A DNA stretch of 64,000 nucleotides from Dehalococcoidia bacterium (GTDB lineage: Bacteria; Chloroflexota; Dehalococcoidia; UBA2979), in contig OZ253555.1 of the NCBI GenBank assembly GCA_965262725.1, positions 1,120,001-1,184,000 on the forward strand, written 5' to 3'. A model generated the notes under the pieces. That model was given only the letters and a program-made list of their open reading frames with translations, did not search any database and was not told the DNA's origin. The translations under genes were made by a program, and so were the position numbers. Positions 13,011 to 22,728 of the stretch are shown here, piece after piece. How positions within the stretch are numbered: position 1 is the first letter of the stretch; the number at the start of each line of letters is the position of its first letter.

Positions 13011-13991
13011 CTAGAGCACGGCCACGAGCGCGAGCGCCTCGGGCACGCTCTCAGCGAGCATGCGCCACTGTCCGCCGCGGTCGTGGGAGGCCCAGAGGCA
13101 TCCGCCCGCGGCCACGAAGGCAGTGTCGGCGACGCCGTGCAGGCGGCAGATGGCGGGCAACGCTGGCCAGGAGTCGGCGTCACCCAGCGTCACCCGCCGC
13201 CACGCGACCCCGCCGTCGGTCGAGCGGAAGAGAGCGGCCTCCGAGCCCTCCCGGCCGGGGCGTGATCGTCGGGCGGCGGCCAGCAGGATCACATCGCTCA
13301 CCCCGGGGAGAACGGCCGCGTCCCCAATCAGGCTCCGGTCGAGTCCGCCGAGCGACTGCACCCAGCTGGCGCTCCCGTCCTGGCTGCGGAAGAAGCCGGC
13401 CCTGGTGGCGGCGTAGGCGTACTCGGGCTGCTCGGGGTGCTCCCAGACACCGCGCACGTCGGAGGGGAGGCCTTCTGCGGAGCGCAGCCAGCTCCATCCA
13501 CCATCGTGGGAGATCCACGCGCCAGCGCCGTCGACGCCGGCGAGCCAGCCGTCGCCGGCGAAGCAGAGCCCCGTCACCGCAAGCGCCCCGTGGACGGGTC
13601 GCCGGACACTCGGTGTGTTGCGGAGCGCGGCGCCGAGACCCGGGCGCTCCTGCCAGCTCTCCCCTCCGTCGTCCGAGGTGACGACGCCGGCTGGCTCGAC
13701 TCCGGCGAGGAGCAACCCGCCCGGTCCGACACGAACGCAGTGCGCCGATCCTTCCCGGCATCGACGCCAATCGCCAGCTCCGCGGCGAACCCAGATGCCC
13801 GCCGTCGACCCGGCGATCGCGAGAACGCTCGGCAGCCGTCCGTCGCGGCCGGTCTGCGGTGCGGCATCGAGCGAGGTGACGGGCACGCCGCCGAGCTCGG
13901 CGGACGAGAGCTCTAGGACGAGCGGCTCGCCCGGGACGAGGCGCGAGATGCCCTGGGCGCCGCCGAGGAGCACGCCGAGCGCGGGATGCAC
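13011..13991 (-). CDS. BNR/Asp-box repeat beta-propeller protein
   Basis: Repeated S-x-D-x-G-x-x-W motifs (SDDGGESW, SHDGGWSW, SQDGSASW, STDGGVAW, SHDRGGQW). Confidence 0.8.
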   Translation of the reverse strand: MHPALGVLLGGAQGISRLVPGEPLVLELSSAELGGVPVTSLDAAPQTGRDGRLPSVLAIAGSTAGIWVRRGAGDWRRCREGSAHCVRVGPGGLLLAGVEPAGVVTSDDGGESWQERPGLGAALRNTPSVRRPVHGALAVTGLCFAGDGWLAGVDGAGAWISHDGGWSWLRSAEGLPSDVRGVWEHPEQPEYAYAATRAGFFRSQDGSASWVQSLGGLDRSLIGDAAVLPGVSDVILLAAARRSRPGREGSEAALFRSTDGGVAWRRVTLGDADSWPALPAICRLHGVADTAFVAAGGCLWASHDRGGQWRMLAESVPEALALVAVL

Positions 13992-14003
13992 CGGCTACCG
14001 TGC

Positions 14004-14852
14004 TCAGGTGCGCGCGGCTCGACGCGCGCGCACCGCGGATATCAGCTCCGGCAGGATGTCGCCCGCAGGGCCGCGGCAGCTCACCTCGGCGTATCCGGTG
14101 AGCGGCGTCGGCTCCGGGTTCACCTCGACGAGCGTCGCACCGCGCTGCCACGCGAGCAGCGGGAAGCCCGCAGCCGGCATCACGACGGCCGATGTGCCCA
14201 CGACGAGAAAGCAATCGGCGCGGCGCGTCTCGGTGTCGCATCGTGTGAGCGCCTCGGCGGGAATCGGCTCGCCGAACATCACGGTGTCGTCCTTCACCAC
14301 GCCCGCGCAGCCAGGGCGGCTGCACCGCGGCGGGAGCGTGCTCTCGTCGACGGGGAACTCGCGCGCCGGCCAGCGCGCGCCGCAGTCCAGGCAGCGCATC
14401 CAGTGCCGGTTGCCGTGGATCTCCGTGATCTCCTGCTGCCCCGCGCGGCGGTGCAGGTCGTCGACGTTCTGCGTGATCAGGTGACGCACGATGCCGAGGC
14501 GCTCGAGTTCCGCAATCGCCTCGTGGGCGGCGTTCGGCTGCGCCTCGTCCACGGCGCGCGCGAAGCTCTCCGGGTCTGCCTGCTCCGTCCGTCGCCGGTC
14601 GAGCCGTTGCCGCCACCATCCAGCGGTGTCCTCGAGGAAGACTTGGAAGCCGTTCATCGGCGGCTCGCCGTTGACCGTCCACAGTCCGCCCTCGCCGCGG
14701 AACGTCGGGATGCCCGACTCCTTCGACACGCCGGCGCCCGTCAGCACGACTACGTACTGCGCCCGGGCGAGGAACTCGCCGGCGCGATCGATCTCCGCTG
14801 CGAGTCCGCCGTCGCGCTGCCCGTCGGCCGCCGAGGAATCCGCGTCGCCCAT
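14004..14852 (-). CDS. cobB: NAD-dependent protein deacylase (Sir2/CobB family)
   Basis: [28 protein letters not shown], Zn-binding CLDC...C....C, VGTS, EVNP. Confidence 0.9.
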
Positions 14853-14967
14853 GGAGCCATCGTAACGGCCCGGCGAGCAGGGACGCGACGGTCTGTCTCC
14901 GACGCATCTCCTATGCTGTCTATGGTGAGAAGGCCGCGCAGAGGGCGGAGCATGCAGGAGGCAGGCG

Positions 14968-15579
14968 GTGGCGCGGTTGCGTGATGTCAGGACGCTGGGC
15001 CGCGCCGCGGTCGTCGCCGCCGTCGTGCTCACGATCGCGGGGATCGTCCTCCAGCGCGAGGTGCTGACCCGGGACGACGGTGAGCGGATCGGCGCCACCG
15101 ACGGACAGCGCCCCCGCGAGGGGGAGCCCGCGCCGGACTTCACTTTGCTCTCCGCGGAGGGGGAGCGCGTCGCGCTCTCCGACTTCCGCGGCAAGACGGT
15201 CGTCCTCAATTTCTGGGCGACTTGGTGCCCCCCTTGCCGTGCCGAGATGCCGGAGCTGCAGGCGGTGTGGGAGGAACGCGGCGAGGGTGAGGACCTGGTC
15301 GTTCTCGCGGTCGACGTCGGGGAACGTGCAGATGAGGTGCTGGCCTTCGTCGAGAACTTCGAACTGACGTTCCCCGTCGCTCTCGATGTCGACGGCTCCG
15401 TTGCCGACCACTACGGTCTCCCCGGGCTCCCGTCGACGTTCTTCATCGACGCCGAAGGCGTGCTGCGCTCACAGGTTCTAGGCCCCGTCTTCGGAGATCT
15501 CCTGGAGGCGGGTATCGCGGCAGCGGACGCGGGCGGCGCCCCCGAGCGCCCGACCTCTGCTCGCCCGCCGGCGCGGTGA
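14968..15579 (+). CDS. TlpA/ResA-like membrane-anchored thiol-disulfide oxidoreductase
   Basis: N-terminal TM segment, [32 protein letters not shown]. Confidence 0.92.
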
Positions 15580-15595: not shown

Positions 15596-17236
15596 GTGTT
15601 CGTCTACCGCTACGAGGATCTGCGTTTCGAATCGCGACGCTCGCCGCTGATCACGCGGCGCGCCGCCGTCGCGACCAGCCAGCCTCTCGCCGCTCATGTC
15701 GGTCTCGAGATCCTGCAATCGGGCGGCAACGCTGCCGACGCCGCCGTCGCCACGGCGGCCGCGCTGAACGTCGTTGAGCCGACGATGACGGGGATCGGCG
15801 GGGACTGCTTCGCGCTCTACTTCGATGCGGCGAGCCGGGCGGTGCACGCCGTCAACGGGAGCGGACGCGCCCCGGCGGCACTCACCCTCGCCGAGCTCAA
15901 GCGCCGGGGCGTGCGCGGCGTTCTGCCGCAGCGGAGCGCGCTGGCGGTCACAGTGCCCGGTGCCGCGGCGGGGTGGTCCGACACGGTGGATCGGCACGGG
16001 CGCCTCGCGCTCGCCGACGTGCTCGCCCCGGCGATCGCGCTCGCCGAGGAGGGGGCTCCGGTCTCGCCGCTCGTGGCCTACCTCTGGGCCCAGGGGGAGC
16101 CGCACCTTAGGCAGGGGCCGCACGCGGACGAGATGCTGCTCGGGGGCCGCCCCCCCCGGGCCGGGGAGATCTGGCGCAATCCGACTCTCGCGCGAACCCT
16201 CCGAGCCGTAGCCGGAGGCGGAGCCGAGGGCTTCTACACCGGTCGCATCGCCGAGGCGATTTGCGCAGTCGTGCACGAGCTCGGCGGCGTGCTGACGACC
16301 GGCGACCTCGCCGCGCACCGCTCGACCTTCGAGGCGCCGATCCGCGCCCGCTACGGGGATCACTGGATCTACGAGTGTGCCCCGCCCGGGCAGGGTCTGG
16401 CGGCGCTGATGGCGCTTCAAATCGCCGCAGGACTCCCGCTGGAGGGTCGGGAACCGCGCTCGGCCGAGGCGCTCCATCTGCTGATCGAGGCGATGCGGCT
16501 TGCCTTCGCTGACGCCCGACGCTATGTCGCCGATCCGGCCTTCGCCGACGTGCCGGTCGAGGCGCTGCTCGATCCCTCCTACGCCGCCGGACGGCGCGCG
16601 CTCATCGACGCGACGCGCGCGACGATCGACCCGGTTGCGGGCTCGCCGGGTGCGACATCGGACACGGTTTATCTCGCCGTGGTCGACGAGGAGGGGAACG
16701 CCTGCAGCTTCATCAACAGCAACTACAACGGGTTCGGCACCGGCATCGTGCCGGAGGGATGCGGCTTCACGCTGCAGAACCGCGGCCGGGGATTCTCGCT
16801 CGATCCGGCGCATCCGAACGCGGTGGCGCCCGGGAAGCGGCCGTACCACACGATCCTTCCCGGGCTTGTGACGCACGCCGATGGAGAGCTCTACGCCTGC
16901 TTCGGCGTGATGGGCGCCTTCATGCAACCGCAGGGCCACCTGCAGCTACTGGTGAACCTCCTGACGCACCGGATGGATCCGCAGTCGGCCCTCGACGCGC
17001 CGCGCTTCCGCATCGTTGCCGAGGAGGAGGGCGGTCGCATCCAGGTCGAGGACGGGATCCCCGATCACGTGATCGAGCGGCTCGCTCGGCTCGGCCATCC
17101 CGTGGAGCGCGTGACCGGCGTCTATCGCGCGAGCGGTAGACTGGGCCGCGGGCAGGTGATCGCGCGCGATCGCGACTCCGGGGTGCTGTGGTCGGGGTCG
17201 GACGGGCGCGCCGACGGCGCGGCGGTCGGCTACTAG
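15596..17236 (+). CDS. ggt: Gamma-glutamyltransferase family protein
   Basis: GGNAADAAVA, GIGGDCF, VTVPG, DTVY (nucleophile Thr), LQNRG, KRPYHTI, GVMG..MQPQGH. Confidence 0.92.
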   Translation: MFVYRYEDLRFESRRSPLITRRAAVATSQPLAAHVGLEILQSGGNAADAAVATAAALNVVEPTMTGIGGDCFALYFDAASRAVHAVNGSGRAPAALTLAELKRRGVRGVLPQRSALAVTVPGAAAGWSDTVDRHGRLALADVLAPAIALAEEGAPVSPLVAYLWAQGEPHLRQGPHADEMLLGGRPPRAGEIWRNPTLARTLRAVAGGGAEGFYTGRIAEAICAVVHELGGVLTTGDLAAHRSTFEAPIRARYGDHWIYECAPPGQGLAALMALQIAAGLPLEGREPRSAEALHLLIEAMRLAFADARRYVADPAFADVPVEALLDPSYAAGRRALIDATRATIDPVAGSPGATSDTVYLAVVDEEGNACSFINSNYNGFGTGIVPEGCGFTLQNRGRGFSLDPAHPNAVAPGKRPYHTILPGLVTHADGELYACFGVMGAFMQPQGHLQLLVNLLTHRMDPQSALDAPRFRIVAEEEGGRIQVEDGIPDHVIERLARLGHPVERVTGVYRASGRLGRGQVIARDRDSGVLWSGSDGRADGAAVGY

Positions 17237-17281: not shown

Positions 17282-17716
17282 ATGGTCGACTCGATGACGG
17301 CGAAGGAGATGCTCTCCTTCCTCGATGAGAAGCCGCGCGCCGGCTATCTGGTCTTCACTTCGATCGGTCCCCGCGGCTACCCCCACTCGGTGCCGCTCTC
17401 CTACTTTCGGGTCGGCACCGACCTTGTGATGGGGGCCCGCGCTGGCACGCAGAAGCTGCGCAACGTGGAGCGTGACCCCCGCGTCTCAATCTCCCTAGAA
17501 GACGGCAACTCTCTCGATACGCTGCGCGGCCTGCTGATCGAGGGGGACGCCCGCGTCGTTGCCGGGGGCGCGGAGTCGCTGGAGCTAGCACGGGAGGGCG
17601 CGCGGGCACGCGGTACGCCCGAGTCGGAGCTCCCGACGGAGCTTCGGCCCGGCACCGCCTACATCCGCGTCACGCCGCGGCGGTGGATCTCGTGGGACTA
17701 CTCGAAGAGCGAGTAG
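17282..17716 (+). CDS. Pyridoxamine 5'-phosphate oxidase-like (PPOX/F420-binding) protein
   Basis: GYPHSVP, QKLRNVERDPRVSI, LRG, ISWDYSK split-barrel motifs. Confidence 0.88.
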   Translation: MVDSMTAKEMLSFLDEKPRAGYLVFTSIGPRGYPHSVPLSYFRVGTDLVMGARAGTQKLRNVERDPRVSISLEDGNSLDTLRGLLIEGDARVVAGGAESLELAREGARARGTPESELPTELRPGTAYIRVTPRRWISWDYSKSE

Positions 17717-17782
17717 GATTGCACTCGGACGGTGCGCTGCTTGACTGCCCGCTCAGCGGAGGCGCAGAGGGGAACATCGGTG

Positions 17783-18592
17783 ATGAGGGCTTCGCGTCGT
17801 TCCCTGTGGCCCCTAACCCTAGGGCTGGCGATGCTGGTCGCCTGCACCTCGTCTGCCGACCAACCACCAGCTGTGACGGCGCCGGCAGAGTCCGGGAGGA
17901 CGGCTCCGACCGCCTCCGCGGCCGCGGTGCCGACGGAGTCCGGGAGGACGGCTCCGACCGCCTCCGCGGCCGCGGTGCCGACGGAGTCCGGGAGGACGGC
18001 TCCGACCGCCTCCGCGGCCGCGGTGCCGACGGAGTCCGGGAGGACGGCTCCGACCGCCTCCGCGGCCGCAGCGCCGACGGAGTCCGGGAGCACGGCTCCG
18101 GCCGCGCCCGCCGGCACAGCTCCGACCTCCTCCGGGAGCGCGGCACCGAACGCGCCCGCCGCCGTAGCGACCGCGCCTCCGGACGTCGGCTTCCCGACTG
18201 GCCCGGCCGTCCTGGTCGTGGCCAACTATGAGCCGCCGCCCGACCGCGTGGACTCGACGGGCGCCTTCCTGCCGGCGAACGGGAAGCCGACGCTGGTCTT
18301 CGTCGATGCGATTTGGTGACCGTCCTGCGCGCTCGCGCGGCCCGTCGTGCACGGGCTTCGGAACGAGTACCAGGACCGAGTGAATTTCGTCATTCTCGAC
18401 TTCGACCGGGACGACGAGCGCGACCTCGCGAGTGCCATGGGCGTGGGACGGCATCCGGCGTATGCGGTCGTGCCACCCGCCTCGCCGCCCGGTGATGCCC
18501 TCCTGCAGCGATTCGGACCGCTCACCGAGGATCATCTGCGTGCTTTGCTCGTGGAGGTCGCGGAGCTCTTTCCGACCGAGGGGGGCAGCTGA
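17783..18592 (+). CDS. Probable selenoprotein: lipoprotein with Pro/Thr/Ala repeat stalk and thioredoxin-like domain (UxxC), 269 aa
   Basis: Signal peptide with LVAC lipobox; GKPTLVFVDAIW-TGA-PSC continues in frame into VHGLRNEYQDRVNFVILDFD...GRHPAY; hairpin downstream of the TGA. Confidence 0.8.
17888..18100 (+). repeat. In-frame 48-bp tandem repeat, about 4.4 copies (ESGRTAPTASAAAVPT)
   Basis: Unit GAGTCCGGGAGGACGGCTCCGACCGCCTCCGCGGCCGCGGTGCCGACG at 17888, 17936, 17984; variant at 18032; partial at 18080. Confidence 0.95.
18331..18368 (+). promoter_or_regulatory. Putative bacterial SECIS element
   Basis: Stem GCCCGT/ACGGGC (18340-18345/18351-18356) with loop CGTGC starting 26 nt after the TGA; G at loop position 2; lower stem GCTCG/CGAGT. 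Confidence 0.65.
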
Positions 18593-18604
18593 GGACCGGG
18601 GTCG

Positions 18605-19933
18605 CTACGCCGGTTCGCACACGGCCCGCACGCCGCAGAAGAGGATCTCGATCCCGAGGCGCAGGTTCTCGATCGAGAGGCGCTCGTCATTGCCGTGGGC
18701 CCGTCCGCTCTCCCCCTCCGAGAGGAGCACCGGCACGAAGCCGTAGGCGGGGATGCCGCGCCGTCGGAAGACGCGAGAGTCGGTGAAGCCCGTCGAGACG
18801 CCGGGGACGACCGCCGCCGCCTCGACGACCGAGAGCGCTGCCGCCTCCAGAGCACGGTAGAGTTCGGTATCGACGGATGAGGCGCGCGTCGACGACGAGA
18901 ACACGGTCTCAACCTCGACCGTCGGATCGTCGATCACACGCGCGAGCTCCGCGAGAAAGCCCTGCGGGTTGTCGCCGGGCAGGAGCCGGACATCGAGCGT
19001 CGCCTCGGCGAGCGAGGGGATGACGTTGTGCTTCACACCGGCCGTGACGCTGGTGACGGCGATGGAGGCGCGCTCCAGCGAGCGTAGCCGGGGCTCAGTG
19101 GCTGCGAGCCTGGCGAGCGCCTCGACCGTGGGCGGGCCCTTCAGCGCGCCGGCCCGGTGCAGCGCCCTCAGGTATGCGGTGACCTCCGGCACGAGCCGCG
19201 CCGGGCGCTGCCACCCCTCGATCCGCGAGAGCGCGCGCACCAGCCGCTCGATCGCCGCGTCGGCGTGCGGCACCGACCCGTGGCCGGCCTGGCCCGTCGC
19301 GCGCAGCGTGAGCCAGAGCGGTCCCTTCTCGGAGACGCCGATGGTGAAGATCGGGCGCTTCACCCCGAACGTCTCCTGAGCGCCCATGCCGCCCTCGTTG
19401 ATCACGTAGGCGCAATCGAGCAGTTCCGGGTGGTCGCGGTCGAGGAACTCGATCCCCCAGCCGCCACCAGCCTCCTCGTCGGGCACGGCCATCAGCATGA
19501 GATCGCGCCCCAGCGGGAGCCCGAGTCGCCGGTGCAGGAGCAGCACGAGCAGCTCCATCACGCCCATCCCCTTCATGTCGATCGTGCCGCGTCCCCACAC
19601 GTGACCGTCGCTCACGGCGCCCGCGAACGGATCGACCGACCAGTGACCGCGCTCGGCGGGAACGACGTCGGTGTGATGCAGGAGCACCAGCGGTCCGCCG
19701 CGCGAGCCGTCGCCGGCGAGCTGCGCGATGAGGCTCGTGCGCGAGGCACCCGCCCCGGGGCCCGGGTCGATCCGGCGCGACGGTATTCCCTCGGCGTCAA
19801 GCACCTCGGCCAGCCAGTCGCAGGCACCGATTTCGTTGCCCGGCGGGTTCGTCGTGTCGATGCGCACGTACGTCGAGAGCAGCTCCACCGCCTCGGCGGT
19901 GACGGCCTCCCAGTCCACCTGCGGAGGGCTCAT
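18605..19933 (-). CDS. M20/M25/M40 family metallopeptidase
   Basis: HHTDVVP, GRGTIDMKG, PDEEAGG, INEGG, GHGSVP, GFTDSR, AHGNDERL. Confidence 0.92.
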   Translation of the reverse strand: MSPPQVDWEAVTAEAVELLSTYVRIDTTNPPGNEIGACDWLAEVLDAEGIPSRRIDPGPGAGASRTSLIAQLAGDGSRGGPLVLLHHTDVVPAERGHWSVDPFAGAVSDGHVWGRGTIDMKGMGVMELLVLLLHRRLGLPLGRDLMLMAVPDEEAGGGWGIEFLDRDHPELLDCAYVINEGGMGAQETFGVKRPIFTIGVSEKGPLWLTLRATGQAGHGSVPHADAAIERLVRALSRIEGWQRPARLVPEVTAYLRALHRAGALKGPPTVEALARLAATEPRLRSLERASIAVTSVTAGVKHNVIPSLAEATLDVRLLPGDNPQGFLAELARVIDDPTVEVETVFSSSTRASSVDTELYRALEAAALSVVEAAAVVPGVSTGFTDSRVFRRRGIPAYGFVPVLLSEGESGRAHGNDERLSIENLRLGIEILFCGVRAVCEPA

Positions 19934-20814
19934 CCGCCGACCCCCGCCTCCCGGCAGCACCCGGCGAAGACGGTCATCGCCTCGATGTGGGACCCCGCGC
20001 CGCGCAGCCCCGCCCCCATCGTGTTCAGTGTGAGGTGCGTGGCCCCCGCCTCCTCCCAGGCGCGGGCTGCGGCGACCTGTTCACGCACGTTCCGTCCAGC
20101 GATCTGCACGCGCGTCTCGACGCCGATCGAGGCGGGGTCGCGCCCCGCGCGGCGGATCTCGCGGTGCAGTTCCGTGAGCGGGCCCGCGAGCGAGGCCGGG
20201 TCCCCGCGCAGGCGGGGCGTGATCAGCCATCCGTCGGCGTGGCGCGCGATCCGGGAGAAGACGGCGGGCGCGCCGCCACCCATCCAGAGCGGTACCCTCC
20301 CGCCGGGTGGTCGGGGCTTCACGCCGGCCGAGCTGACGCGATGGAAGCGGCCCTCGAAGCGCACGGACGGCCGCTCCCACAGGGCGCGCATCAGCGCGAT
20401 CTGCTCCTCGATTCGCTTGCCTCGCGTGTGGTAGTCGACGTCCAGGGCCTCGAACGGCGGACGCTGCGAGCCGACGCCGACGCCGAGCCAAAGGCGGCCG
20501 TCGGAGAGCACGGCGAGCTCTGCGGCTTGCTTCGCCACGAGGGCGCCCTGTCGCGGCGGCAGGACCAGCACGCCCGTCAGGAAGCGCAGGCGGCTTGTCA
20601 CGGCCGCCATGTACGCGAAGAGCACCAGCGGCTCGTGCCGGGTCCGCTCGGCGGGATCGCGCAGCACGCCCGGGTGGTCGGGATCCGCGCCGAAGACGTG
20701 GTCGAAGGCGACGGCGTAGTGGTAGCCGGCCTCCTCGGCGGCGCGCGCCCACTCGGCGACGGCGTTCGGCTCTGTGATCGGATCGAGCTGCGGAAAGACC
20801 ACACCCAGCGGCAT
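19930..20814 (-). CDS. LLM-class (probably F420-dependent) oxidoreductase
   Basis: FDHVFG, HEPLVLFAYMAA, TGVLVLP.RQ..LVAKQAA, LWMGG. Confidence 0.9.
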   Translation of the reverse strand: MPLGVVFPQLDPITEPNAVAEWARAAEEAGYHYAVAFDHVFGADPDHPGVLRDPAERTRHEPLVLFAYMAAVTSRLRFLTGVLVLPPRQGALVAKQAAELAVLSDGRLWLGVGVGSQRPPFEALDVDYHTRGKRIEEQIALMRALWERPSVRFEGRFHRVSSAGVKPRPPGGRVPLWMGGGAPAVFSRIARHADGWLITPRLRGDPASLAGPLTELHREIRRAGRDPASIGVETRVQIAGRNVREQVAAARAWEEAGATHLTLNTMGAGLRGAGSHIEAMTVFAGCCREAGVGG

Positions 20815-20822
20815 TGCCCCGC

Positions 20823-21713
20823 CTACTCCATCCGGTCCAGCGCTTCGCGGAAGCGCTCGAGGACCTCGGCATGTTGTTGTGGCGCGCTCCAGCCGGCGCC
20901 CATTGTGTTGACGGCGAGGTGGCTGACGCCGCTCTCCTCCCATCGGCGCGCCTGCTGCGCGGCGCCTTCATAGTCGATCGCTGCGCCGCGACTCTCGCCC
21001 GGTGCGAGAGGGAGGTGGACCTCGACGCCGATGGAGCTTGGCTCTCGGCCGGCGGCGGCCGCCGCCTCGTGCACGCGGGCGAGATCGGGCGCGAGGGTCT
21101 CGGGCTCGCCGTGCGGTGGGAACCACCCCTCCGCGAGTCGTCCCACACGCGACAGAACGCGGGGTGCCGTCCCCCCCATCCAGATCGGGATCGCACCCCT
21201 GGCCGGACGGGGGCGCATCGGCCCGCGGACGCGGTGGTAGCTCCCCTCGAACGTCACCTCGTCCTGCGCCCAGAGTGCCCTGACCAACGCAATCTGCTCC
21301 TCGATGATCCGACCGCGCTGCGCAAAGTCTACGCCGAGCGCCTCGTATTCGACGGCGTTCCAGCCGACACCGACGCCCAGCCTCAGCCGACCCCCGGCGA
21401 GCTGCGCGAGCGTCGCGGCCTGCTGTGCCACCAGCACCGCCTGCCGCTGGGGCAGGACTAGGACGTCGGTCACGAACTCAAGCCGCTCCGTGCACGCCGC
21501 GAGGTGAGCGAACAGCAGCAGCGGCTCGTGGAACGGCGTCTCGTGGGTGTAGGCACCGCGCCAGCCCCCCGGCCGGACGGGGTCGACTCCGAGCACGTGG
21601 TCGAAGGCGAGGAGGTGCGAGTAGCCCGCCCGCTCCACGTCTCGCGCGAATCCTCGCAGCGCCGCGGCGTCGCCCTCGATCTCGGTCTGCGGGAAGATAG
21701 CGCCGAGCCGCAC
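20823..21713 (-). CDS. LLM-class (probably F420-dependent) oxidoreductase
   Basis: LGAIFPQTEI, FDHVLG, FHEPLLLF, LRLGVGVGWN..EY, IPIWMGG; paralog of the adjacent gene. Confidence 0.9.
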   Translation of the reverse strand: MRLGAIFPQTEIEGDAAALRGFARDVERAGYSHLLAFDHVLGVDPVRPGGWRGAYTHETPFHEPLLLFAHLAACTERLEFVTDVLVLPQRQAVLVAQQAATLAQLAGGRLRLGVGVGWNAVEYEALGVDFAQRGRIIEEQIALVRALWAQDEVTFEGSYHRVRGPMRPRPARGAIPIWMGGTAPRVLSRVGRLAEGWFPPHGEPETLAPDLARVHEAAAAAGREPSSIGVEVHLPLAPGESRGAAIDYEGAAQQARRWEESGVSHLAVNTMGAGWSAPQQHAEVLERFREALDRME

Positions 21714-21837
21714 GGATCGCCTCCGCCCTCGGGGCGCGCATCGCGCCTCATCGCGAGGCACTCTATACACCGGATCCGCTCCGGTACGCAGGGACACCGC
21801 TCTCCCGCGCGCCGAGGCGGGCCCGTACGCTGCTCGC

Positions 21838-22728
21838 GTGTACGTCGTTGTTCTTGTTGCCGCAGTCGTCGCGATCTCCTGGGCGGCGCCGTTGATCCGG
21901 CTGGCCGAGGCACCGGTACTCGTCATCGCCGCTCTCCGGATCGGCTTCGCCGCCGCGCCGATGGCGGCGGCCGCGGCCTGGTGGCGTCGCGATGAGCTGA
22001 GGATGCTCGGCCGAGACGGGCCCGCTCGTCGCGACGCGGCGTTCGTCGCGTTGGCCGGCGCGGCGCTCGCCGGCCACTTCTGGGCATGGGTGTCGGCCAT
22101 CGATCGGACGTCGGTGATCACGAGCGTCGTGCTCGTCGCCCTCCAGCCCTTGATCGCCGCGCTTGGCGCGTGGCTGTTGCTCCGCGAGCGGCCTCCACGC
22201 GTGACGCTCGTGGGGATGGCGATCGCGTTCGGCGGGGCGTTGCTCCTCATCGCCGACGACCTCGGCGAACGCGGCTCGCTCACGGGTGACGGCCTCGCGC
22301 TCCTCGCCGCGGTGCTGGCGAGCGGCTATCTGGTCGCCGGCCGCCGCGCGCGGCGCCGACTCTCGAACCTCACCTACGGGGCCGTCGTCTACTCCGGGGC
22401 GGCGGCGATCCTGCTCGTGGCGATCGCCGGCTCGGGGACGCGCCTGAGCGGCCACCCGGCCGAAGCGTACCTGTTGATCGTCGCGCTCGCGCTCGGGCCC
22501 CAGATGATCGGACATAACGCTCTCAACTGGGCGCTCGGCGCGCTGCCGGCTGCGACGGTGGCGGTCGTGACTCTGGGCGAGCCGGTGGGCGCGGCCGTAA
22601 TCGCCGCACTCTTGCTCGACGAGCTGCCGAGCGCATCCGAGATCTTGGGTTCGGTGGTGGTGCTCGTCGGGGTCGGTGTGGCCCTGGCGCCTCTGTATTC
22701 GCCGGCGACTCGTCGCCAGCTTCTTTGA
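21838..22728 (+). CDS. DMT/EamA family transporter
   Basis: About 10 TM segments; GPQMIGH, LGEPVGA motifs; start approximate. Confidence 0.88.
   Translation: MYVVVLVAAVVAISWAAPLIRLAEAPVLVIAALRIGFAAAPMAAAAAWWRRDELRMLGRDGPARRDAAFVALAGAALAGHFWAWVSAIDRTSVITSVVLVALQPLIAALGAWLLLRERPPRVTLVGMAIAFGGALLLIADDLGERGSLTGDGLALLAAVLASGYLVAGRRARRRLSNLTYGAVVYSGAAAILLVAIAGSGTRLSGHPAEAYLLIVALALGPQMIGHNALNWALGALPAATVAVVTLGEPVGAAVIAALLLDELPSASEILGSVVVLVGVGVALAPLYSPATRRQLL

What the first reader, a model, noticed from the sequence alone, without database searches (positions are those of the whole stretch)
17783..18592. Hidden selenoprotein: surface lipoprotein with a repeat stalk and a UxxC thioredoxin domain
Seen: the ORFs 17732..18319 and 18347..18592 are in the same frame, separated only by TGA 18317-18319. 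Read-through gives KPTLVFVDAIW-U-PSC, placing the TGA exactly at the first Cys of a thioredoxin WCxxC motif, followed by the rest of the fold (EYQDRVNFVILDFD, cis-Pro-like HP). A GCCCGT-CGTGC-ACGGGC hairpin begins its loop 26 nt downstream with G at loop position 2. Known: this fits the bacterial SECIS consensus, and UxxC Trx-fold selenoproteins exist. Inference: the architecture (lipobox, long P/T/A stalk, Sec redox head) would be an extracytoplasmic Sec oxidoreductase that standard annotation misses. It ends a co-directional run with TlpA, GGT and a PPOX protein, which suggests an exported thiol/selenol redox module.
Basis: partly seen in the sequence, partly recalled or inferred. Interest (0 to 1): 0.8.

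Follow-up and report, generated by a model that had tools for sequence, protein, structure and literature searches.

The report
Selenocysteine thioredoxin lipoprotein gene, mis-split
The two small reading frames are one gene for a membrane-tethered, exported thioredoxin-like enzyme whose reactive cysteine is replaced by selenocysteine, a real gene that annotation cuts in two but an expected kind of protein in a bacterial group already known to be rich in selenoproteins.

Summary
Window 17783-18592 (+) is one 269-codon frame interrupted only by TGA 18317-18319, which sits at the first Cys of a thioredoxin WCxxC motif.

The TGA is almost certainly selenocysteine:
- The genome has tRNA-Sec, selA, selB and a TGA-containing selD.
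- All 26 strong matches in 24 related genomes carry exactly one in-frame TGA.
- It lies in the same column in 22 of 22 and 54 of 56 copies. The other two have TGC.
- 20 full-length Cys homologues exist.
- The downstream hairpin meets the published bacterial SECIS constraints and is 97.3% paired over 58 distinct sequences, with compensatory changes in 4 of 7 pairs. It is absent from both Cys forms.
- Independent assemblies from four studies show no change at the TGA.

63 of 66 distinct copies have a signal peptide with a lipobox. The fold is classical thioredoxin.

Function as an extracytoplasmic selenol/thiol oxidoreductase is inferred. The proposed module with GGT and PPOX is weakly supported; only the TlpA-like neighbour recurs in the same co-directional run.

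It is a new member of a known kind (UxxC thioredoxin-fold selenoproteins). This scan found the same family earlier on other Dehalococcoidia DNA.

The parts
17783..18592 (+). Whole selenoprotein gene: 269 codons from ATG 17783 (GTG 17780 adjacent), Sec at codon 179, stop TGA 18590-18592
   Evidence: Orthologues share the start and the architecture.
17783..17845 (+). Signal peptide ending in the lipobox L-V-A-C. The Cys codon 17843-17845 is the predicted lipid-attachment site.
   Evidence: Read. A signal peptide with lipobox is found in 63 of 66 distinct family members. lgt and lspA are in the genome above cut-off.
17846..18184 (+). Low-complexity P/T/A/S-rich stalk. It holds a 48-bp (16-residue) tandem repeat, 4.8 copies, at 17877-18105.
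   Evidence: The distance from the lipid Cys to Sec varies from 60 to 275 residues among relatives.
18185..18589 (+). Conserved 135-residue head: a family-specific N-terminal extension plus a thioredoxin fold
   Evidence: Pfam PF00085 scores 27.6 bits against a cut-off of 23.5. AF2 model has pLDDT 87.9 and pTM 0.85. The best Foldseek and PDB sequence matches are classical thioredoxins.
18317..18319 (+). In-frame TGA read as selenocysteine; first residue of the U-P-S-C redox motif (18317-18328)
   Evidence: It aligns with the N-terminal Cys of the thioredoxin WCGPC motif. No variant appears in contigs of four studies.
18339..18357 (+). SECIS-type hairpin: 7-bp stem (18339-18345 with 18351-18357) and loop CGUGC (18346-18350). 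It encodes part of helix alpha-1 (R-P-V-V-H-G-L).
   Evidence: The constraints are taken from PMC13188914.
18452..18457 (+). H-P, with Pro at the position of the thioredoxin cis-proline
   Evidence: H90 and P91 are nearly invariant in alignment A2. They align with the I-P of thioredoxin.
14968..15579 (+). Neighbour: membrane-anchored TlpA-like (AhpC/TSA-Redoxin) protein with WCPPC. It is the only neighbour in the same co-directional run that recurs widely.
   Evidence: A relative lies within 4 kb upstream in 15 of 35 related loci and directly upstream in L063, L069 and L075.

Best explanation
Window 17783-18592 is one gene for a selenoprotein. A SelB/tRNA-Sec complex, recruited by the hairpin at 18339-18357, decodes UGA 18317-18319 as selenocysteine.

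The product would be exported, lipid-modified at Cys21 and anchored to the outer face of the cytoplasmic membrane. A flexible P/T/A-rich stalk would hold out a compact thioredoxin domain with active site W-U-P-S-C.

The selenolate at the position of the attacking Cys of thioredoxin would attack substrate disulfides or other oxidised sulfur species, giving a mixed selenenylsulfide. The second Cys of the motif would resolve it. The oxidised head would then be re-reduced through the extracytoplasmic reducing pathway (a CcdA-type conduit, possibly by way of the adjacent TlpA-like protein).

Shown by computation:
- one conserved frame;
- TGA/Cys pairing at the redox site;
- a conserved, covarying hairpin;
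- Sec machinery in the genome;
- lipobox;
- thioredoxin fold.

Inferred: actual Sec insertion, lipidation, surface location, the direction of the redox reaction, and the partners.

My sub-odds are: TGA = Sec 0.93; extracytoplasmic lipoprotein 0.85; reductase rather than oxidase 0.55.
For: Sec machinery in the same genome:
- tRNA-Sec at 71.6 bits, called SeC/tca by ARAGORN.
- selA at 542.9 bits and selB at 284.9 bits.
- selD at 356.9 bits, with its own in-frame TGA followed by a hairpin.

Conservation of the TGA:
- All 26 matches with E <= 3.7e-20, in 24 of 61 genomes searched, carry exactly one in-frame TGA.
- It is in the same column in 22 of 22 copies and in 54 of 56 copies in 35 further loci. 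The other 2 have TGC.
- 20 full-length homologues have WCxxC.

Link to the machinery:
- selA was found in 22 of the 24 TGA-form genomes. The 2 without are 73% and 92% complete.
- The 4 same-family genomes with neither a selA match nor the TGA form (91-96% complete) have no orthologue at all.
- Neither of the 2 Cys-form genomes has selA or selB above cut-off.

Hairpin:
- 7-bp stem, 5-nt loop xGU.., 26 nt after the UGA, -10.6 kcal/mol. This meets all four constraints quoted in PMC13188914.
- 97.3% of 406 cells are paired. 4 of 7 pairs show changes on both sides (23 cells). 0 of 500 shuffles reach the covariation score, and slid controls pair only 6-53%.
- Some compensatory changes alter amino acids (V to I or G, H to A, G to R).
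- The hairpin folds at <= -7.5 kcal/mol in 52 of 58 distinct Sec forms, against 0.0 and -1.2 in the two Cys forms.

Not an assembly error: contigs from 4 runs of 4 studies cover the site without change.

Architecture:
- Lipobox in 63 of 66 distinct members; lgt and lspA present.
- Thioredoxin fold.

Context:
- A TlpA-like neighbour in 15 of 35 loci.
- A DsbD_TM/CcdA-type gene in the genome at 44.1 bits.
Against: - There is no experimental evidence of selenium incorporation, lipidation or activity.
- On the single sequence, the downstream fold is no better than shuffles (z = -0.97).
- The hairpin lies in a conserved peptide segment, so part of its nucleotide conservation is due to the protein.
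- 6 of 58 distinct hairpins fold weaker than -7.5 kcal/mol.
- 2 of 24 TGA-form genomes showed no selA; both are incomplete assemblies.
- One copy (L061/L035) lacks a signal peptide and has an extra TAA, so it may be decaying.
- On function: nothing tells reductase from oxidase. The CcdA-type gene is far from the locus. GGT and PNPOx are not conserved neighbours.
Confidence: 0.85

Rival explanations
1. Same selenoprotein, opposite chemistry. The surface Sec-thioredoxin acts as an oxidant or isomerase (DsbA/DsbC-like) that introduces or shuffles disulfides in exported proteins, or as a scavenger of peroxides or metals. It would not be a reductase fed by a CcdA/TlpA pathway.
For: - The location is extracytoplasmic.
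- DsbA-like and DsbG-like UxxC selenoproteins are listed as predicted families (PMC13188914, table passages read).
- In other genera the genes sit beside a MerR-type regulator, DUF3179 and an EamA transporter, which could point to metal or stress handling.
Against: - The closest sequence and fold relatives are classical reducing thioredoxins, not DsbA.
- There is no DsbA-type helical insertion in the model.
- The recurrent neighbour is a TlpA-like protein. That family is usually reductive; this is my recall, not a test made here.
Confidence: 0.25
2. The TGA is a true stop. The locus would hold a truncated lipoprotein ending at ...DAIW and a separate 81-codon ORF (GTG 18347), as public gene calls have it. 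Alternatively, it is a recent nonsense mutation or pseudogene.
For: - Gene callers split it this way.
- One related copy looks degraded (L061/L035).
Against: - The stop falls exactly on the catalytic Cys column in 22 of 22 and 54 of 56 copies across many genera, while both halves stay conserved and in frame.
- Neither half alone is a thioredoxin fold.
- Cys forms are full length.
- A nonsense mutation would not be inherited across more than 14 genera together with a covarying hairpin.
Confidence: 0.03
3. Sequencing or assembly error: the true codon is TGC or TGT.
For: None was found.
Against: - Contigs of four runs from four studies cover 18283-18700 with no change at 18317-18319. The listed variants at 18313, 18323 and 18324 come from related contigs.
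- The same TGA is present in 54 of 56 related copies.
Confidence: 0.01
4. UGA is recoded here, but to another residue, for example Cys delivered by a Sec-like tRNA or near-cognate read-through as Trp or Cys. The protein would then be an ordinary CxxC thioredoxin made by an unusual route.
For: The comparative data (conserved TGA, hairpin, Cys homologues) cannot by themselves tell which residue is inserted.
Against: - The complete canonical pathway is present, with selA and selD above cut-off.
- The tRNA is a standard tRNA-Sec by Rfam and ARAGORN.
- The TGA forms occur almost only in genomes where selA was found.
Confidence: 0.03

Closest known systems
Thioredoxin selenoproteins with a UxxC centre (PF00085). 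PMC13188914 and PMC9312934 list them among experimentally verified prokaryotic selenoproteins (table passages read).
   Same: - Thioredoxin fold.
- Sec at the attacking-Cys position of WCxxC.
- A SECIS hairpin just after the UGA.
- Pfam PF00085 above cut-off.
   Different: - Here the domain is exported and lipid-anchored on a long low-complexity stalk.
- It has a conserved ~44-residue N-terminal extension.
- The motif is W-U-P-x-C rather than W-C-G-P-C.
- It forms tandem gene arrays in some genera.
[quoted passage not shown] Sources: PMC1088965, PMC13188914, PMC9312934 (passages and tables read).
   Same: UxxC in a thioredoxin-superfamily domain, a presumed thiol-disulfide exchange role, and discovery by Sec/Cys pairing.
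   Different: The window protein scores below the Pfam cut-offs of PF13098 (22.4 against 27), PF13905 (24.9 against 27) and PF08534 (14.9 against 26.6). I could not compare it with the accession numbers given in those tables, so identity with one of these bins is neither shown nor excluded.
TlpA / ResA / CcmG-type membrane-tethered extracytoplasmic thiol-disulfide reductases
   Same: Tethered to the outer face of the membrane with a CxxC-type head. A Cys homologue (P0017) is named 'TlpA family protein disulfide reductase' by its source. A true TlpA-like gene lies beside it.
   Different: The Redoxin and AhpC-TSA models do not reach cut-off. The best solved relatives are plain thioredoxins. The anchor is a lipid rather than a transmembrane helix.
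Cys-type lipoprotein thioredoxins of other bacteria (for example P0083, P0088, P0098, P0163)
   Same: The same architecture: signal peptide, lipobox, acidic or low-complexity linker, and a thioredoxin domain with WCxxC.
   Different: They are Cys, not Sec, and only distantly related. They form the outgroup in the quick tree with 100% SH-aLRT.

Membership tests
Bacterial (SelB/SECIS-dependent) selenoprotein | In-frame UGA conserved among orthologues | tested here: met
   26 of 26 strong matches carry one TGA. It is in the same column in 22 of 22 and 54 of 56 copies.
Bacterial (SelB/SECIS-dependent) selenoprotein | Cys-containing homologues align with the UGA | tested here: met
   20 full-length WCxxC homologues and 2 TGC loci.
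Bacterial (SelB/SECIS-dependent) selenoprotein | bSECIS hairpin as quoted in PMC13188914: 3-9 nt apical loop, 4-16 bp stem, G in the first two loop positions, 16-37 nt from the UGA, MFE <= -7.5 kcal/mol | tested here: met
   5-nt loop CGUGC, 7-bp stem, 26 nt spacing, -10.6 kcal/mol. 97.3% paired, with 4 of 7 pairs compensatory.
Bacterial (SelB/SECIS-dependent) selenoprotein | tRNA-Sec, SelA, SelB and SelD in the genome | tested here: met
   all are above the curated cut-offs.
Bacterial (SelB/SECIS-dependent) selenoprotein | Selenium shown in the protein (75Se labelling or mass spectrometry) | not testable with these tools
No RNA run was listed either.
Thioredoxin family (PF00085) | Profile score above Pfam's gathering cut-off | tested here: met
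   27.6 bits against 23.5, residues 168-233 of P0001.
Thioredoxin family (PF00085) | Thioredoxin fold with the CxxC at the start of helix 1 and a cis-Pro loop | tested here: met
   The model has strands and helices in thioredoxin order. Foldseek TM-scores on the target are 0.69-0.83 to thioredoxins. U aligns with the first Cys, and H-P with the I-P of thioredoxin. The cis conformation itself was not checked.
TlpA/ResA/CcmG (Redoxin, AhpC-TSA) family | Profile score above cut-off for PF08534 or PF00578 | tested here: not met
   PF08534 scores 14.9 bits against 26.6. PF00578 is not listed at E <= 1.
Bacterial lipoprotein | Signal peptide with a lipobox Cys, plus Lgt and LspA in the genome | tested here: met
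   L-V-A-C at codons 18-21. 63 of 66 distinct relatives have one. lgt scores 130.7 bits and lspA 105.1 bits. Lipidation itself is not testable here.
NCBIfam-modelled thioredoxin-like selenoprotein families (SaoT NF040730, HUIPC NF047660, VPGUxxT NF041383, GOS_C NF045500) | A match to the family model | tested here: not met
   None of these appears among the NCBIfam matches at E <= 1. The best is the generic thioredoxin TIGR01068, at 25.7 bits against a cut-off of 96.8.

The most novel reading that the evidence does not exclude
This could be a distinct, lineage-specific selenoprotein family not yet separated out in the published catalogues. It would be a lipid-anchored surface thioredoxin of one Dehalococcoidia family in which Sec, not Cys, is the ancestral state. 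Reversion to Cys would have happened where the Sec machinery was lost. The genes would have been amplified into tandem arrays, and would form an envelope redox or metal-stress module with TlpA-like, DUF3179, MerR and EamA genes. The SECIS hairpin would also visibly dictate amino-acid choices in helix alpha-1.
Probability: 0.3. Interest if true: 0.5.

Novelty: new member of a known kind. Interest (0 to 1): 0.35.

Why it matters
In practice, it is another case where standard gene calling cuts a real redox enzyme into a 'hypothetical protein' and an orphan small ORF. This happens across a whole bacterial family, so selenoproteomes and envelope redox capacity of uncultivated Dehalococcoidia are undercounted.

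Biologically, it adds a lipid-anchored, surface-exposed selenoenzyme to a group already reported as selenoprotein-rich (PMC13326102, one section read). It also gives a clean natural pairing: Sec forms with the hairpin where selA was found, against Cys forms without the hairpin where no selA or selB was found. That pairing could be used to study why Sec is kept at an extracytoplasmic site.

It does not change what is known about how selenocysteine is encoded.

Tried and rejected
- Single-sequence fold of 18310-18380: z = -0.97, with 31 of 200 shuffles folding as well. It is not usable as evidence in this G+C-rich DNA, so I relied on comparative counts instead.
- Expression: no RNA holder was listed. 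Contigs cannot show transcripts.
- Short-read contigs leave 17972-18039, inside the 48-bp repeat, uncovered. I read this as assembly breakage at a repeat, not as a finding.
- My first lipobox pattern was too strict (54 of 78) because it forbade Cys and Pro in the hydrophobic core. I replaced it with a looser rule on distinct proteins (63 of 66).
- The careful maximum-likelihood tree did not finish in 300 s. Only the quick tree (SH-aLRT, 130 columns, many open forks) is reported. It needs at least 4 Sec/Cys changes, but starred branches force only 1, so the direction of change is a suggestion.
- Membership in TlpA/Redoxin, Thioredoxin_2 or Thioredoxin_8 is rejected, because all are below cut-off. 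No selenoprotein-specific NCBIfam model matched.
- 'Redox module with GGT and PPOX': GGT lies within 4 kb in 6 of 35 loci and PNPOx in 12 of 35, so I did not adopt it. The + strand ORF 13986-14984 has no Pfam match and overlaps a longer ORF on the minus strand.
- Literature: three searches for this family in Chloroflexi, SAR202 or Dehalococcoidia found no paper describing it. These searches cover open-access full text only. I could not query BSepDB itself, or the accession numbers in the review tables, so the family may already be filed there under a broad bin.
- The search of earlier findings near this place returned nothing.
- I did not run complex prediction for the TlpA-like neighbour, because I claim no binding.

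Full report
OBSERVATION

The window lies at G000:C1:1120001-1184000 of a 3.67-Mb single-contig genome, 91.55% complete. From ATG 17783 (GTG 17780 is adjacent) to the stop at 18590-18592 there is one frame of 269 codons. It is broken only by TGA 18317-18319.

Read through, the protein has these parts:
- A signal peptide ending in the lipobox L-V-A-C, with the Cys codon at 17843-17845.
- A P/T/A/S-rich stalk. It contains a 48-bp tandem repeat with 4.8 copies and 96% matches at 17877-18105.
- A 135-residue head in which the TGA is the first position of W-U-P-S-C.

Pfam Thioredoxin (PF00085) scores 27.6 bits against a cut-off of 23.5. Redoxin, Thioredoxin_2 and Thioredoxin_8 stay below their cut-offs.

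IS THE TGA SELENOCYSTEINE?

1. Machinery. The genome has a tRNA-Sec: Rfam gives 71.6 bits, and ARAGORN calls it SeC with anticodon tca. It also has selA (542.9 bits), selB (284.9 bits) and selD (356.9 bits). The selD gene itself carries an in-frame TGA at the known Sec/Cys site, followed by a hairpin.

2. Conservation.
- A six-frame search of 61 genomes (own, same genus, same family, same class) gave 26 matches with E <= 3.7e-20 in 24 genomes.
- Every one of the 26 had exactly one in-frame TGA.
- All 24 genomes belong to the window's own taxonomic family: 23 of its 36 sampled genomes, plus the window's genome. None of the 24 genomes from other families of the class had such a match.
- Extending the frames shows the TGA in the same column (DAIW-TGA-xxC) in 22 of 22 copies.
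- A pattern scan of one genome per species returned 35 loci. All are records titled as Dehalococcoidia or Chloroflexota metagenome-assembled genomes.
- Those loci hold 56 copies: 54 with TGA and 2 with TGC at that column.

3. Cys homologues. A protein search found 20 full-length homologues (150-210 aa) with WCxxC. It also found N-terminal pieces that stop at ...DAIW.

4. Link with the machinery.
- selA was found in 22 of the 24 TGA-form genomes. The two without are 73% and 92% complete.
- Four same-family genomes with neither a selA match nor the TGA form (91-96% complete) have no orthologue at all.
- The two Cys-form genomes have no selA and no selB above cut-off. Their completeness was not given.

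5. Hairpin.
- The bacterial SECIS constraints quoted in the Fig. 2 legend of PMC13188914 (passages read) are a 3-9 nt loop, a 4-16 bp stem, G in the first two loop positions, 16-37 nt from the UGA, and MFE <= -7.5 kcal/mol.
- This hairpin has a 5-nt loop CGUGC, a 7-bp stem, 26 nt spacing and -10.6 kcal/mol.
- On 70 sequences (58 distinct), 97.3% of 406 cells pair.
- 4 of 7 pairs have changes on both sides, in 23 cells.
- 0 of 500 shuffles reach the covariation score.
- Sliding the partner by 1-3 columns drops pairing to 6-53%. A first set of 22 sequences gave the same picture.
- Several compensatory changes alter the encoded residues (V to I or G, H to A, G to R). So the RNA structure is kept at some cost to the protein.
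- 52 of 58 distinct Sec-form hairpins fold at <= -7.5 kcal/mol. The same columns in the two Cys forms give 0.0 and -1.2 kcal/mol.
- Caveat 1: on the single sequence, the 71-nt fold is not better than shuffles (z = -0.97).
- Caveat 2: the stretch also encodes a conserved peptide.

6. Not an error. 19 runs hold at least half of the sampled words of the stretch. Contigs of four runs from four studies cover 18283-18700 with no change at 18317-18319.

Together these leave little room for a pseudogene, two separate genes or a sequencing error.

ARCHITECTURE AND FOLD

63 of 66 distinct family members have a signal peptide with a lipobox. Two of the three exceptions are cut by contig ends, and the third may be decaying. 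The genome has lgt and lspA above cut-off.

The distance from the lipid Cys to Sec ranges from 60 to 275 residues, with a median of 80 and 157 in this window. The stalk is therefore a variable spacer.

An AlphaFold2 model of the head, built from a 23-row alignment, has pLDDT 87.9 and pTM 0.85, with thioredoxin-order strands and helices. Its best Foldseek matches in the PDB are classical thioredoxins, with E about 1e-6, rmsd 1.9-2.5 A and TM-score on the target 0.69-0.83.

A profile search of PDB sequences also ranks thioredoxins first, at 1.8e-8. It places U on the attacking Cys and H-P on the cis-Pro position. A conserved extension of about 44 residues precedes the fold and is specific to the family.

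CONTEXT

The gene ends a co-directional run:
- A membrane-anchored TlpA-like protein with WCPPC at 14968-15579.
- Gamma-glutamyltranspeptidase at 15596-17236.
- A PNPOx-like protein at 17282-17716.

Within 4 kb of 35 related loci, the TlpA-like gene recurs in 15, PNPOx in 12 and GGT in 6. The convergent M20 peptidase recurs in 19.

In three other loci (L063, L069, L075) the order is DUF3179, then one or two TlpA-like genes, then one or two Sec-thioredoxin genes. In L063 and L069 a MerR-type regulator, a long-stalk Sec-thioredoxin paralogue and an EamA transporter follow; in L075 the paralogue and the EamA gene follow without a MerR gene among the ORFs I scanned.

A DsbD_TM/CcdA-type gene exists elsewhere in the genome, at 44.1 bits.

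MECHANISM, INFERRED

The protein would be exported, lipidated at Cys21 and tethered to the outer face of the membrane. The selenolate would attack oxidised substrates, and Cys182 would resolve the mixed selenenylsulfide. The head would be recycled by the extracytoplasmic reducing pathway.

Whether it reduces or oxidises its substrates is open. I favour reduction, with odds of about 0.55. The nearest relatives are reducing thioredoxins, and the recurrent neighbour is TlpA-like.

EVOLUTION

A quick tree used 91 rows (62 Sec, 23 Cys, 6 distant Cys lipoprotein-thioredoxins as outgroup) and 130 columns. It puts all Sec forms and the close Cys forms in one clade with 100% SH-aLRT. The Cys forms nest in about four places.

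This fits Sec being ancestral here, with reversions to Cys. Many forks are open, however, and the careful search did not finish.

WHAT IS KNOWN

UxxC thioredoxin-superfamily selenoproteins have been catalogued since 2005. They include thioredoxin, thiol:disulfide interchange protein, thiol-disulfide isomerase-like protein, Redoxin family protein, and DsbA-like and DsbG-like proteins. The sources are PMC1088965, PMC9312934 and PMC13188914 (passages and tables read).

BSepDB lists two Dehalococcoidia genomes among the ten richest in selenoprotein genes, with 46 and 49 genes (PMC13326102, one section read).

No NCBIfam selenoprotein-specific model matches this protein. Three full-text searches found no paper describing this lipoprotein family. 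I could not query BSepDB or the listed accession numbers.

Public gene calls split the gene:
- 48 of the 150 best representative clusters end at the profile position of ...DAIW.
- 12 of the 150 begin just after it. I checked four of these by sequence.
- The window's own C-terminal piece is on record as an 81-aa protein.
- A relative's N-terminal piece is named 'hypothetical protein'.

Earlier notes of this scan describe the same family on other Dehalococcoidia DNA and reach the same verdict. I read them only after my own tests.

VERDICT

It is a new member of a known kind and of modest interest.

Noticed in passing
window 17877-18105: A 48-bp tandem repeat (16-residue units, 4.8 copies, 96% matches) lies inside the stalk. 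Short-read contigs of four runs leave 17972-18039 uncovered, so the copy number may vary or be hard to assemble.
   Followed up: partly
L075:4829-4894: The second tandem copy has a second TGA at the resolving-Cys position (U-P-H-TGA), where its near relative L076 has TGC. It is either a UxxU centre or a broken copy.
   Followed up: no
L063, L069, L075 (whole loci): In other genera the Sec-thioredoxin genes sit in a cluster: DUF3179, one or two TlpA-like genes, the Sec-thioredoxin genes and an EamA transporter, with a MerR-type regulator between the paralogues in L063 and L069. DUF3179 is itself listed as a selenoprotein family in PMC13188914, but these copies have no in-frame stop.
   Followed up: partly
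G000:C1:2792527-2793462 (outside the window): The selD gene of this genome is itself a selenoprotein gene, with TGA at the ...CAG-U-AGK site and a hairpin downstream.
   Followed up: partly
window 14004-15209 (-) and 13986-14984 (+): The minus-strand ORF looks like a Sir2-type deacetylase by eye; I did not scan it. The overlapping plus-strand ORF has no Pfam match and is probably its antisense shadow, although it gave tblastn matches in 5 loci.
   Followed up: no
L061 / L035 (same genome, G034): This copy has no recognisable signal peptide upstream and an extra in-frame TAA near its end. It may be a decaying copy or an assembly fault.
   Followed up: no
window 18278-18345: In run X14 the summed contig depth rises to 237 here, against about 17 beside it. 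Several variant contigs contribute, which suggests that many relatives sharing the conserved TGA/hairpin stretch live in the same community.
   Followed up: no
window 19930-20943 (-) and 20823-22283 (-): Two adjacent luciferase-like monooxygenase genes lie downstream of the M20 peptidase. They are conserved beside it in 13-14 of 35 related loci.
   Followed up: no
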